A stretch of 64,000 nucleotides of DNA from Eledone cirrhosa (taxonomy: Eukaryota), in the NCBI GenBank assembly GCA_964016885.1, contig OZ024742.1:204910001-204974000 (forward strand), in the 5' to 3' direction. Under the pieces are notes generated by a model that worked only from the letters and a program-made list of their open reading frames with translations, was not told where the DNA came from and ran no database searches. Made by a program: the position numbers and the translations under genes. Position 1 is the stretch's first letter. Every line of letters begins with the position of its first letter. Of this stretch, positions 5,849 through 11,952 are shown piece after piece.

Positions 5849-6190
5849 ATATATATATATAAATATGTATATATATATATAAATATATGTATATATATAA
5901 ATATATATATGTATATATATAAATATATATATAAATATATATATATATATATATATATATATATATATATATATATATATATATATATAAATATATATAT
6001 AAATATATATATAAATATATATATATAAATATATATATATATAAATATATATATATATAAATATATAAATATGTATATATGTATATATAAATATATATAT
6101 ATATATATAAATATGTATATATTTATATAAATATGTATATATATATATAAATATGTATATATATAAATATATGTATATATATAAATATAT
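5849..6190. repeat. Compound TA microsatellite (left flank of the PLE)
   Basis: Directly visible. Confidence 0.95.
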
Positions 6191-6454
6191 AGCGGCGATG
6201 AATTAGTTTTGCGAGGTTTTTTATATGAAATCGTGTGTCGAAACAGATATTGTTATATTTGGGGAGGGTCATATTTGCGTAATATTGCCAGAATTAATAA
6301 CAGAACACACTCACTGTTTGGTTGGTTTTCGCTTCTCGCTGTCTTTTATATATATATATCTGCGATCTAACTTACTCGGTCCTCAATGTTGCCATTGACT
6401 GACCGGCGGTCAAAAATAATACAGATACAATATAGACAAACACATATATATATA

Positions 6455-6500
6455 GTTTACATAAATCTTTCGTTGCACATCTGCAACATCGTCAGTGGTG
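6455..6500 (-). ncRNA. Hammerhead-like motif in the PLE pLTR
   Basis: Reverse complement of 10705-10750. Confidence 0.5.
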
Positions 6501-6771
6501 TTATATTCATTGTTCCTCCTGTTGTGTTGTATGTCTACGCCATTTTTTTTTTTTGTTCAGTCTGTCTATATATTTATTTATTTATTTGCTTGTTTGTTTA
6601 TCTTATTTTATTTTGTCTTCTTTGCGCATGCGTTTGCGTGTGTGTATAGTGTTATGTGTGATGTGTGACTAGTGTGTATAGTGTTGTGTCTGCTGGGTGA
6701 CTAGTGTGTGTTTATGTGCTTGTGTATGTATTTATTTATCTTATTTTATTTAATTTAATTTACTTATTTAT

Positions 6772-9132
6772 TTATACTTCTCTTAGGTCAGTGTTGTTTG
6801 TTTGGGTGTTGTTGTTGTTCCACTCATTCTTTCTGTTTAGCTGTGGTCTTCTAATTTCTATTTCACTGGCCTCTCTGATTTGCCTATCTGCTGGGTCATT
6901 CCTATGTTTAGATATTATTCTAATTTCTATGTTGTCTATGTTACCGTCATGATGTTGTCTAGCATGTTCGTATAGTACTGACCCGTTTTTTCGTCCTTTT
7001 AGTTCCCCCCAGTGTTGGTCTATCCTTTCACCTATGCTACGAGCTGTCTCACCTATGTATGTTGTTGTCGTGTTTCTGCAAGTACCCTCTGTACATCTTA
7101 TGCTATAGACTACGTTTCTAGTTTTACAGTTTATCCGGGGGTTCACCTTACATATGATACATTTCCTATTGGTACAGTGGGTTTTCTTAAAAGGGTAGGT
7201 TTTGCTGATCAGGGATTTTATGGTGGTTCCTGGCTTTTCTACCACCTTTATTTTTAAGTGGGTCTTTCTCAGGGCCTTTCTACACTGGTTAGCTAATTTC
7301 CCTCCAGGGGTGGCGTCCACAAACATGACACTCTGATATCTCTGGTTGTCGTACCATGATGTGGCCTTCCCTATCTTATGTCTAGCCCTATCTAAGCTAT
7401 TCCATGATTTGCTCCTGTATAGTGGGCAAATTCCTTTCATGTCCAGTTCTATGAGGGTCTTATACTTTTCCATGGCTCCTTCGTATACTCTGACTCTGTC
7501 TCTTTGGTTGTAGCCAGAGAACTGCATGCGGTTGATGAAGTGTTGGATGTGTCCTTCCATTTCTGTTGGGTCGCACATGCTGGACACATTCTTCATCACT
7601 CGTACCAAATCTGCGATCAGAATATTAAACTTAGCACTACTGGACATTGCTGAGTTTTTGAGTATCAGGTATTTGGAGGCCATGGGTTTAGCATAGTGTG
7701 AGTGGAGAATTTGGGCTCTCTCGTCTATAGTGTTAATCCAGAGTTCTGTGTCTAATACAGGTAGTCTATTGTTAGGGTGTTTGGAAGGGAAGTCTATAGT
7801 TACAGTTATACTCTGGTGTATGGAATTAGCTATCTGCTGGATGCTTTCCATCGTGCTACGTTCTAAATCAAACTTGTTAGTGCTCTCTAGTGGGGGTGTT
7901 CTTATAACTATATTGATATCGTCTACATAACGAGAGTACATGATGAGGTCTATGGAGCTTTCATTAAGGAGATCTTTAAGTCTCCTTTCCCACCATACCA
8001 TGAAAAGGTTGGCAACATCGCCAGCTATGCTGACGCCGATGGCTGCTCCCTCATTTTGGGTGTAGATTTTCTCATTGAACTTAAATATGTGGCCCTTTAG
8101 GGTAGTTTTGATACTAGCCCCTATTGCATGTGCGACCATTTTTCTTACCTGATCAGTGTTTTGGGGGGTCCGTATAGCTTTGGTCCACCCAATCCACCTT
8201 CCTATGGGAGTCTTTTTAGCCATTGAGGTTATGGTGGGGGGTCTACCTCTTATAGGTCTACTAGGGCAGAAACATCTAAGGTCATGGCTGTCTAGGTAGT
8301 CAGTGTCGTAGGTAAGTCTAAGTAGGAGGCCCAGTTCGTCTGTGTCGACGTCGCAGAACTCCACCTCACTCTCAATGATCATCTCCACACATCTTTTCAC
8401 AGCAAAATCAATGTTAATGGATGGGTACAGTGACACCACATCCATGCTGCCTATTATGCAGTTGGATAGGCTCCTGTTTTTGTTGCACTCACTGATTCTG
8501 CTGAGGAGGTCCTCTGTACTTTCACATACATCTGGGGACATCTTGATTATGGGGCGTATAACCATTGAGAGGAAGTAGGAGATCCTGTAGTTGCTAGCTA
8601 TATTAGCTCCGCATACAGGTCTTGTTGGTGGTCCTGTTGTCGGGTCGTCGACTGTCTTGTGGTCTTTGCGGAGCCCATACAAGGGTGGTATGCCATTGTT
8701 AGACGCCTGGAAGTTGTTGGCAGTGCGTCTGCTTGGCTTTAGGATGTCAGTCCACATCATCATGTGAGCGTTGAGGATTTTTTCTCTCCCATCGTGTGTT
8801 AGTTGTGCAACTTCGCTCGTGTTGGTGATGTGGGGTTGCATTGCCTCGATGTAGTTCGGCATGCTATCTATTGACATCCTACCAGACTTATCTGTGGGTA
8901 GACACACTACCTCACCATCCCTTGTGCGCTGCTTGAGGCTAACCAAGCCTTCTACAGGTTTTATCCCAAGTTGTTGGGCCTCTGGTCTGCTCTGTCTCAT
9001 AGTGTACCTGTCTACTACTTGTCTAATCTTATTTCTAGCTATGGTGAACTGTGCCTCCGTCTCGTCATCTATTTGTTGTGGTATGCAAACTCTTTTATTA
9101 AAGGGTAACCTCGTAGGATAGATATTACCCAT
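6772..9132 (-). CDS. PLE reverse transcriptase + GIY-YIG endonuclease (N-terminally truncated)
   Basis: RT motifs: PTDKSG, LYGLRKDHK, RPVC, DVVSLYPSI (A), QNEGAAIG (B'), YVDD (C), LPVLD (E). A Cys linker CTNRKCIIC precedes the endonuclease NVVY..C....C...YIGET..R...H...H...RQIREA...LNRK. The frame stays open upstream of the Met to the inversion junction (FFNPADKTYK-M). Confidence 0.93.
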   Translation of the reverse strand: MGNIYPTRLPFNKRVCIPQQIDDETEAQFTIARNKIRQVVDRYTMRQSRPEAQQLGIKPVEGLVSLKQRTRDGEVVCLPTDKSGRMSIDSMPNYIEAMQPHITNTSEVAQLTHDGREKILNAHMMMWTDILKPSRRTANNFQASNNGIPPLYGLRKDHKTVDDPTTGPPTRPVCGANIASNYRISYFLSMVIRPIIKMSPDVCESTEDLLSRISECNKNRSLSNCIIGSMDVVSLYPSINIDFAVKRCVEMIIESEVEFCDVDTDELGLLLRLTYDTDYLDSHDLRCFCPSRPIRGRPPTITSMAKKTPIGRWIGWTKAIRTPQNTDQVRKMVAHAIGASIKTTLKGHIFKFNEKIYTQNEGAAIGVSIAGDVANLFMVWWERRLKDLLNESSIDLIMYSRYVDDINIVIRTPPLESTNKFDLERSTMESIQQIANSIHQSITVTIDFPSKHPNNRLPVLDTELWINTIDERAQILHSHYAKPMASKYLILKNSAMSSSAKFNILIADLVRVMKNVSSMCDPTEMEGHIQHFINRMQFSGYNQRDRVRVYEGAMEKYKTLIELDMKGICPLYRSKSWNSLDRARHKIGKATSWYDNQRYQSVMFVDATPGGKLANQCRKALRKTHLKIKVVEKPGTTIKSLISKTYPFKKTHCTNRKCIICKVNPRINCKTRNVVYSIRCTEGTCRNTTTTYIGETARSIGERIDQHWGELKGRKNGSVLYEHARQHHDGNIDNIEIRIISKHRNDPADRQIREASEIEIRRPQLNRKNEWNNNNTQTNNTDLREV

Positions 9133-10436: not shown

Positions 10437-10704
10437 ATAAATAAGTAAATTAAATTAAATAAAATAAGATAAATAAATACATACACAAGCACATAAACAC
10501 ACACTAGTCACCCAGCAGACACAACACTATACACACTAGTCACACATCACACATAACACTATACACACACGCAAACGCATGCGCAAAGAAGACAAAATAA
10601 AATAAGATAAACAAACAAGCAAATAAATAAATAAATATATAGACAGACTGAACAAAAAAAAATGGCGTAGACATACAACACAACAGGAGGAACAATGAAT
10701 ATAA

Positions 10705-10750
10705 CACCACTGACGATGTTGCAGATGTGCAACGAAAGATTTATGTAAAC
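10705..10750 (+). ncRNA. Hammerhead-like motif in the PLE pLTR
   Basis: CTGACGA-T-GTTGCA gatg TGCAAC-GAAA-GATTTA. The core and stem II are clear, but stems I and III are weak. Confidence 0.5.
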
Positions 10751-10958
10751 TATATATATATGTGTTTGTCTATATTGTATCTGTATTATTTTTGACCGCC
10801 GGTCAGTCAATGGCAACATTGAGGACCGAGTAAGTTAGATCGCAGATATATATATATAAAAGACAGCGAGAAGCGAAAACCAACCAAACAGTGAGTGTGT
10901 TCTGTTATTAATTCTGGCAATATTACGCAAATATGACCCTCCCCAAATATAACAATAT

Positions 10959-11952
10959 AAATATATATATATATATATATATATAAATATGTATATATTT
11001 ATATAAATATGTATATATATATATAAATATGTATATATATAAATATATGTATATATATAAATATATATATATATATATATAAATATATATATATATATAA
11101 ATATATATATATATATAAATATATATATATATATATATATATATATAAATATATATATATATATAAATATATATATATATATAAATATATATATATATAT
11201 ATAAATATGTATATATATATAAATATGTATATATATATAAATATGTACGTATATATATATATAAATATGTATGTATATATACATATAAATATGTATGTAT
11301 ATATATATATAAATATATATATTTATATATTTATATATATATATAAATATGTATTTATATATATATATATATATTTATATATATATATATAAATATGTAT
11401 ATATATATATATAAATATGTATATATATATATATAAATATGTATATATATATATATATATAAATATATATATATTAATATGTATATATATATATATATAT
11501 AAATATATATATATTTATATATATATATAAATATGTATATATATATATATAAATATGTATATATATATATATATAAATATGTATATATATATATATATAT
11601 AAATATGTATATATATATATATATAAATATGTATATATATATATATAAATATGTATGTATATATATATATAAATATGTATATATATATATATATAAATAT
11701 GTATATATATATATATAAATATATATATATATATATAAATATGTATATATATATATATATATGTATGTATATATATATATATATATGTATATATATATAT
11801 ATATATAAATATGTATGTATATATATATATATATAAATATGTATGTATATATATATATATATATAAATATGTATGTATATATATATATATATATAAATAT
11901 GTATGTATATATATATATATCTCCGGGAGAGATGTATGTATATATATATATA
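10959..11952. repeat. ~1-kb compound TA microsatellite with TATAAATATG(TA)n periodicity
   Basis: Directly visible. Confidence 0.95.

What the first reader, a model, noticed from the sequence alone, without database searches (positions are those of the whole stretch)
6085..11066. ~105-bp target-site duplication hidden in the TA microsatellite around the PLE
Seen: 6085-6190 and 10955-11066 share the same ordered interruptions in direct orientation. Between AA marks the units are ATATGTATATATTTATAT, then 18, 14 and 16 nt, and only the first pure-TA run differs (18 vs 24 nt). The first ATAT overlaps the element end. Inference: nicks ~100 bp apart, much longer than usual retroelement TSDs. Each insertion would duplicate its own target, feeding microsatellite growth and creating more target.
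Basis: partly seen in the sequence, partly recalled or inferred. Interest (0 to 1): 0.7.

Follow-up and report, generated by a model that had tools for sequence, protein, structure and literature searches.

The report
Penelope insertion inside doubled microsatellite block
The ~100-base repeat on both sides of this young Penelope-like jumping gene is real, but the family's readable target duplications are mostly 9 bases and this copy has one too, so the long repeat is likely a block of the TA microsatellite doubled by a misaligned exchange between TA runs rather than the trace of two cuts 100 bases apart.

Summary
The repeat is real: 6091-6191 equals 10967-11067 exactly (101 bp, 10 interruptions), and none of 226 virtual sites in the same tract matches it. 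But the family does not nick 100 bp apart as a rule. Among 102 two-ended copies with canonical ends, 18 have a readable short TSD: 9 bp in 12 (this copy included, AAATATATA), 7 bp in 3; 100 exclude an exact TSD of 60 bp or more. PLE-free TA tracts carry similar tandem block duplications (18 in 13 of 319 tracts), and L283 shows a TA-run exchange next to an insertion that mimics a long TSD. Best reading: ordinary 9-bp TSD plus a ~106-bp block doubled between TA runs (0.7). A rare true long TSD stays open: L259 has an exact 133-bp flank repeat (1 seen, 0.01-0.09 expected). No empty allele was found. Insertion sites show no excess TA, so the microsatellite-feeding idea fails. Side result: the tail end likely primes by 4-nt pairing with the target. 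The scan noted two-armed PLE insertions in this genome before.

The parts
5848..6191 (.). Left part of an interrupted (TA)n tract (target)
   Evidence: TRF; tokens
6091..6191 (+). Left copy of the exact 101-bp block (107 bp from 6085 if the 6-nt run difference is allowed)
6183..6191 (+). Left copy of the 9-bp target-site duplication AAATATATA (true stagger 6-13 nt given junction microhomology)
   Evidence: modal length in family
6192..9163 (-). Long arm: 5'-truncated PLE copy (positions 1159-4147 of a 4,147-bp natural unit), 3' end facing left
   Evidence: BLAST to natural unit from L034
6192..6246 (-). 55-nt tail present only on the long arm; ends just before TATG of the next unit
   Evidence: 103 of 120 two-ended copies end at 4147/4092
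6772..9174 (-). Open frame, 800 aa, N-terminally truncated RT + C-terminal GIY-YIG endonuclease (full ORF 1,209 aa in L102:4876-8505)
9164..10958 (+). Short arm: inverted 5'-truncated copy (unit 2281-4092), identical to 6247-8044 save 3 nt of a poly-A; ends in ATAT shared with the target
10710..10737 (+). Hammerhead-like core (CTGACGA, stem GTTGCA/TGCAAC, GAAA) in the pLTR; not confirmed as a ribozyme
   Evidence: sequence; fold (z 0.10); Rfam no hammerhead hit
10933..10958 (+). ORF start codon and first codons carried at the arm's 3' end (pLTR overlaps ORF start)
10959..10967 (+). Right copy of the 9-bp target-site duplication
10967..11067 (+). Right copy of the exact 101-bp block, preceded by a 25-nt TA run (19 on the left)
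10955..11920 (.). Right part of the interrupted (TA)n tract
   Evidence: TRF

Best explanation
This copy carries the family's usual 9-bp target-site duplication, and the ~105-bp repeat is likely a separate doubling of a four-unit block of the TA tract, made when the TA run at the insertion's right junction misaligned with the TA run one block upstream. Shown: head-to-head arms with 3' ends outward, ending at two fixed sites 55 nt apart; 9-bp duplication AAATATATA; exact 101-bp block; junction run 25 nt against 19 upstream and 21 downstream. Inferred: the GIY-YIG endonuclease cuts both strands about 9 nt apart (6-13 nt given microhomology) in a TA run; each 3' end primes reverse transcription at one of two internal RNA sites, helped by 3-4 nt of pairing (TAT/TATG, ATAT); the two truncated cDNAs join head to head. 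Inferred and undated: the block doubled by run-to-run slippage or unequal exchange, leaving a hybrid 25-nt run. I put the timing at about 0.4 at or after insertion (repair of the break, or exchange with an empty allele) and about 0.3 before it (insertion into the middle run of an existing tandem pair).
For: 9 bp is the mode of readable TSDs: 12 of 18 among 102 canonical copies, plus L277 among 10 further two-ended rows not pooled; this copy fits with a mark (AA) in register. A pure long TSD needs the right leading run to be no longer than the upstream run; it is longer by 6 here, by 23 in L093 and by 19 in L171, and equal only in L259. PLE-free tandem block duplications of this grade exist: 18 in 13 of 319 TA tracts of 120 bp or more, e.g. 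period 109 in L132, 97 and 103 in L154, 142 in L119. L283 shows the proposed exchange after insertion: insertion plus a TA block duplicated in tandem (period 624), PLE parts identical, junction run 94 against 65; its first copy alone looks like a long TSD with a swollen first run. Tail-end pairing: G at +4 after the tail end in 74 of the first 100 listed matches against 7, 11 and 8 at +6, +8, +10 (counted by hand, 100 of 118 listed), and that base is also in the right-hand TSD copy in 5 of 6 two-ended cases.
Against: Junction-anchored long repeats are somewhat more frequent than virtual insertions predict: 3 of 113 other copies against 0.94 (P 0.07), and 1 against 0.09 at the window's grade (P 0.09); thresholds were set after seeing part of the data. 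L259 is an exact 133-bp suffix = prefix match (0.01 expected) needing no hybrid run, so true long TSDs may exist. Runs of about 24 nt and more differ between duplicated loci (L042/L043), so a 19-to-25 slip after a long TSD is possible. The short-arm junction sits directly before AA in about 24 of 100 listed cases against 8-25 at other offsets (hand count), so the AA coincidence is worth only about a factor of 5-10. No other block duplication of this size was called in the window's own tract. No empty allele seen.
Confidence: 0.7

Rival explanations
1. True long TSD: the second nick (or the second priming after DNA-templated extension) fell about 103 nt away at another TA run of the same tract, and the first run later slipped from 19 to 25 nt. 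This would be a rare outcome (about 1-3% of insertions), not the family rule.
For: Repeat starts within the junction microhomology and ends exactly at the tail junction. L259 has an exact 133-bp flank repeat with 11 marks against 0.01 expected for fully anchored matches. Long TSDs are known for other retroelements: 126 bp for R9 (PMC6895275 passage), median 900 bp for Dualen (PMC9977147 passage). The PAc protein cuts and extends both strands in vitro (PMC11167929).
Against: Needs two extra coincidences here: the far nick landing on an AA that recreates the 9-bp match, and a 6-nt slip in a copy whose arms show 0 substitutions in 397 bp. In 3 of 4 long cases the right leading run is longer than the upstream run. 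L259 also fits a 7-bp TSD in a tandem pair. 100 of 102 copies exclude an exact TSD of 60 bp or more.
Confidence: 0.2
2. Assembly artefact: at a heterozygous insertion the assembler crossed from the filled haplotype to the empty one inside the TA tract, one block out of register.
For: The structure is what a haplotype switch between two TA runs would give (inference). G000 holds no second haplotype of this locus to check.
Against: Whole insertion plus both blocks spans under 5 kb, within one long read (general knowledge; read type unknown). Marks and run lengths are otherwise base-perfect. Similar block duplications are common away from insertions.
Confidence: 0.08
3. Chance recurrence of common interruption units, with no duplication event.
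For: The tract is built from similar AATATG(TA)n units; weak matches (1 mark, 20 bp or more) are seen in 16 copies against 14.25 expected.
Against: Ten marks and five run lengths match in order over 101 bp; 0 of 226 sites in this tract and 0.09 expected over 113 loci.
Confidence: 0.02

Closest known systems
Canonical C-terminal EN+ Penelope-like elements with inverted pLTR and tail (Pen2a/Pen2/Pen3a_Av of Adineta vaga, PMC3846280 passages; Craig et al. 2021, PMC8557442 passages and section 11)
   Same: Single RT + GIY-YIG ORF, partial tandems, head-to-head inverted 5'-truncated copy, tail on one end only, pLTR covering the ORF start, 8-10 bp TSD (9 bp for Pen2a).
   Different: Tail is 55 nt rather than 30-40; strict (TA)n target; here TSDs are read through tract interruptions, which Craig et al. 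say is often impossible in microsatellite targets; this copy has an added ~100-bp block repeat.
PAc (Poseidon of Anolis carolinensis; Frangieh et al. 2024, PMC11167929, parts 1-2 of 4 read)
   Same: Two internal reverse-transcription start sites that define the tail; both strands cut and extended; AT-rich target.
   Different: [quoted passage not shown]
R9 of rotifers (126-bp TSD; seen only as cited in PMC6895275 and PMC9977147) and Dualen-4b_cRei (TSD-like duplications, median 900 bp; PMC9977147 passage)
   Same: Long direct repeat flanking a retroelement insertion.
   Different: Those are LINEs with RLE (and APE) endonucleases in which long duplications are the rule or the majority; here they are at most about 4 in 114, all confined to TA tract, and three carry a longer junction run.
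Tandem-repeat expansion by slippage or unequal exchange (general knowledge; PMC9977147 passage)
   Same: Block of interrupted units doubled with breakpoints in pure runs and a hybrid middle run.
   Different: The middle run holds a retrotransposon insertion.

Membership tests
EN+ Penelope-like element | Single ORF with RT and GIY-YIG endonuclease | tested here: met
   1,209-aa ORF in natural copy L102: YVDD, VYSIRC...YIGET. Pfam gives only a weak RVT_1 hit below cut-off on the window's frame and none on the full ORF; motifs conserved across homologues.
EN+ Penelope-like element | Partial tandems / inverted 5'-truncated copy, tail on one end | tested here: met
   (103 of 120 two-ended copies end 4147/4092)
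EN+ Penelope-like element | Short TSD (8-10 bp in PMC3846280) | tested here: met
   9 bp in 12 of 18 readable cases, this copy included
EN+ Penelope-like element | Hammerhead ribozyme in the pLTR | tested here: inconclusive
   Core words and stem II at 10710-10737, fold z 0.10, no Rfam hammerhead hit
Neptune / Nematis clades | CX2-5CxxC linker before a C-terminal EN, and CCHH motif in the EN (PMC8557442) | tested here: met
   CTNRKCIIC, three cysteines invariant in 8 of 8 aligned; C..C..H..H present
Neptune / Nematis clades | RT phylogeny placing it in one of the two clades | not tested
Hydra clade | No CCHH, CxCX5C linker, DKT motif, under 3 kb (PMC8557442 section 11) | tested here: not met
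   CCHH present, CX4CX2C linker, DKS, 4.15-kb unit
Naiad clade | N-terminal endonuclease | tested here: not met
   EN is C-terminal
Long-TSD retroelements (R9, Dualen type) | Long TSD is the usual product of insertion | tested here: not met
   100 of 102 exclude an exact TSD of 60 bp or more
True target-site duplication of ~105 bp | Empty allele holds one copy | tested here: inconclusive
   No empty allele in G000; laid contigs and reads skip the TA tracts
True target-site duplication of ~105 bp | Left suffix equals right prefix from the junction | tested here: not met
   Exact feasible lengths are 1 and 9; the long match needs 6 extra TA bases removed

The most novel reading that the evidence does not exclude
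A TA-targeting Penelope-like element has two outcomes: a 9-bp TSD normally, and in about 1-3% of insertions a 60-130-bp duplication of its microsatellite target made at the moment of insertion (second nick or re-priming at another TA run of the same tract), hidden until now because only interrupted tracts reveal it; with 4-nt primer-template pairing choosing the site.
Probability: 0.3. Interest if true: 0.55.

Novelty: new member of a known kind. Interest (0 to 1): 0.3.

Why it matters
As claimed (routine 100-bp TSDs that grow microsatellites) it would have been a new PLE mechanism; the family data rule that out. What remains useful: interruptions in TA tracts make TSDs readable for a microsatellite-targeting PLE (9 bp, two fixed ends 55 nt apart), and the target base bias at the tail end points to short primer-template pairing, unlike the non-homologous start reported for PAc in vitro. 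Both are directly testable with the existing in vitro assay. It is also a caution: block duplications in interrupted microsatellites can pose as long TSDs. If the rare long class (L259) holds up, I found no earlier report of long TSDs for a PLE in seven searches of the held library, which lacks most subscription papers.

Tried and rejected
DNA search of G000 with the element end returned nothing because common words are skipped; exact patterns were used instead. Empty allele: public runs hold at most 0.65 of the flank words; laying three contig sets and one RAD run on 5300-11040 gave only multi-copy PLE signal with the TA tracts skipped, so no verdict. Junction patterns of the tract's outer edges hit 28 and 5 places; the 9 of 27 and 4 of 4 other loci read are unrelated tracts, not alleles. 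A first test suggested extra TA at insertion sites (percentile 0.69, p 0.003); it was biased by requiring 9 pure bases on both sides and vanished with corrected weights (0.54, p 0.53), so telomerase-like TA addition is not supported. Hydra-clade membership, suggested by earlier scan notes for other families, fails for this one. Rfam found no hammerhead. One-ended or incomplete copies were not analysed; rows dropped before the counts: 5 with non-canonical end pairs and L149 (segmental twin of L148).
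Full report
Observation. The finding spans a Penelope-like element (PLE) insertion at 6192-10958 inside an interrupted (TA)n tract. Cutting both flanks at AA marks gives the same four interrupted units in the same order on both sides; 6091-6191 equals 10967-11067 exactly, 101 bp with 10 interruption events. The first pure run is 19 nt on the left and 25 on the right, and ATAT of the element's end doubles as flank. It is not chance recurrence of units: 0 of 226 virtual insertion sites in the same tract reach 6 marks and 80 bp.

The element. 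The left arm (6192-9163, minus strand) covers positions 1159-4147 of a natural 4,147-bp tandem unit taken from L034; the right arm (9164-10958, plus strand) covers 2281-4092. The arms are identical over 1.8 kb except for 3 nt of a poly-A, so the insertion is young. Both 3' ends face outward and the left one carries a 55-nt tail. [quoted passage not shown] (PMC8557442, passages and section 11), not Hydra and not Naiad. No tree was made. The best named relative is an Octopus vulgaris protein at 68%. A tail 26-mer has 1,646 exact matches in the 3.0-Gb genome.

Family sample. I fetched the first 100 listed tail matches on C1 (85 merged stretches), 60 stretches chosen from the 74 matches with an AA mark near the tail, 27 of 30 loci and 40 further stretches from the 110 matches with a G mark. 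With the window this gave 120 two-ended insertions (58 + 42 + 20); one-ended or incomplete copies were left out. 103 of 120 end at unit 4147 on one side and 4092 on the other. Five with other end pairs and one segmental twin were dropped, leaving 114, of which 102 have exactly canonical ends. The second and third sets are enriched for interrupted tracts, which favours seeing long duplications.

Short TSD. In 18 of the 102 an interruption lies inside an exact short flank repeat: 9 bp in 12, 7 bp in 3, and 11, 13, 15 bp once each. The window is one of the 12: AAATATATA at 6183-6191 and 10959-10967. Because TAT at the tail end and ATAT at the short end can be read as element or target, the true stagger is 6-13 nt. 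58 of 102 exclude any exact TSD above 15 bp; 100 exclude 60 bp or more; the two exceptions are L047 (pure TA, uninformative) and L259. Ten more two-ended rows (two are one locus) were not pooled; L277 again shows 9 bp and none shows a long exact repeat. This matches 8-10-bp TSDs of rotifer PLEs (PMC3846280, passages).

Long repeats. Allowing a free TA run at the start of the right flank, four copies have a junction-anchored repeat of 60 bp or more: the window (101), L259 (133, 11 marks, exact from the junction), L093 (80, 2 marks), L171 (60, 2 marks). Against 12,992 virtual sites in the same tracts, the 113 other copies give 3 observed against 0.94 expected (P 0.07), and at the window's grade 1 against 0.09 (P 0.09; 0.01 if an exact start is required). 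Thresholds were set after seeing part of the data, and the window itself was picked for this feature. So there is a hint of an excess, not proof. In three of the four, the right leading run is longer than the run upstream of the left copy (by 6, 23, 19), which a plain long TSD does not give. PLE-free tracts hold 18 tandem block duplications (60 bp or more, 4 or more marks, 3 or more unit types) in 13 of 319 tracts. L283 shows exchange between a junction run and an upstream run after insertion: the whole insertion plus a TA block is doubled, and the first copy alone has the window's anatomy.

Mechanism. Shown: fixed asymmetric ends, outward 3' ends, 9-bp repeat, block repeat, hybrid-length run. 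Inferred: both strands are cut about 9 nt apart in a TA run and each 3' end primes at one of two internal RNA sites, as PAc does in vitro (PMC11167929, parts 1-2 of 4); the cDNAs join head to head. Self-priming fold-back, proposed in PMC3846280, remains an alternative for the inverted arm, though the arm here starts 1.1 kb from the other's 5' end and stops at a fixed site. Unlike PAc, the tail end likely pairs with the target: G at +4 (matching the template's TATG) in 74 of the first 100 of 118 matches against 7, 11, 8 at +6, +8, +10 (hand count), and present in the right TSD copy in 5 of 6 two-ended cases. The ~106-bp block then likely doubled by run-to-run misalignment, before (0.3) or at or after (0.4) insertion. 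A true long TSD with a later slip gets 0.2, an assembly switch 0.08.

Microsatellite growth. About 9 bp per insertion; the reconstituted run at the site is not longer than correctly weighted neighbours (n 27, mean percentile 0.54, p 0.53; the uncorrected test was biased). The positive-feedback idea is not supported.

Empty allele. Not found: no second haplotype in G000; public contigs and reads were uninformative because the tracts are skipped. The timing question is therefore open.

What is known. Inverted arms, tail and short TSD are described PLE traits; Craig et al. note that TSDs often cannot be read in microsatellite targets. Long TSDs are known for R9 (126 bp; original paper not read, cited in PMC6895275 and PMC9977147) and Dualen. 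Seven library searches showed no long TSD for a PLE; a 2026 preprint on retrozymes (three passages; its supplements are closed) did not bear on it. Earlier scan notes describe two-armed PLE insertions in this genome (AI notes, not evidence); none matched this sequence.

Verdict. Real repeat, mostly ordinary cause: a new member of a known kind of PLE with a 9-bp TSD, in a tract whose block was doubled. Interest 0.3, for the readable TSD, the pairing bias and the open rare long-TSD class.

Noticed in passing
L283:1064-2141 (G000:C2, about 300.094 Mb): Insertion plus a ~65-bp TA block duplicated in tandem (period 624 bp, PLE parts identical), breakpoint in the junction TA run (94 against 65 nt).
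   Followed up: yes
L259:4667-6210: Exact 133-bp flank repeat with 11 marks around another copy; best candidate for a true long TSD.
   Followed up: partly
tail junctions genome-wide: G at +4 after the tail end in 74 of 100 listed matches against 7-11 at later even positions; matches the template's TATG and is target-derived in 5 of 6 checked copies.
   Followed up: partly
L036:4001-8043: Copy with tail at both ends whose two flanks are inverted copies of each other for at least 260 bp (fold-back or inverted duplication; assembly not excluded).
   Followed up: no
L042/L043: Two near-identical insertions 9.5 kb apart with the same left flank; in one the second arm ends at unit 4137 and the right flank differs.
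   Followed up: no
L272, L275, L278, L288, L292, L297, L283: Alternative tail-arm ends at unit 4135-4141, again at AT-rich words, with TA junctions.
   Followed up: no
window 11897-11968: 33-bp tandem duplication at the tract's right edge that includes non-TA sequence; L226 shows a similar re-copying of LINE-end sequence into its tract.
   Followed up: partly
L102:4876-8505 (residues about 245-410): Asparagine-rich low-complexity insert in the N-terminal part of the full ORF, recalling the N-rich inserts of A. vaga Penelopes (PMC3846280 passage).
   Followed up: no
window 17891-63991: 46-kb array of a 25-bp satellite with a higher-order repeat of about 2.8 kb.
   Followed up: no
window 3310-4056 and 5234-5847 (-): Decayed LINE-like reading frames (RTE-like by recalled motifs, not tested); the same left edge abuts TA tracts at 4 other places.
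   Followed up: partly
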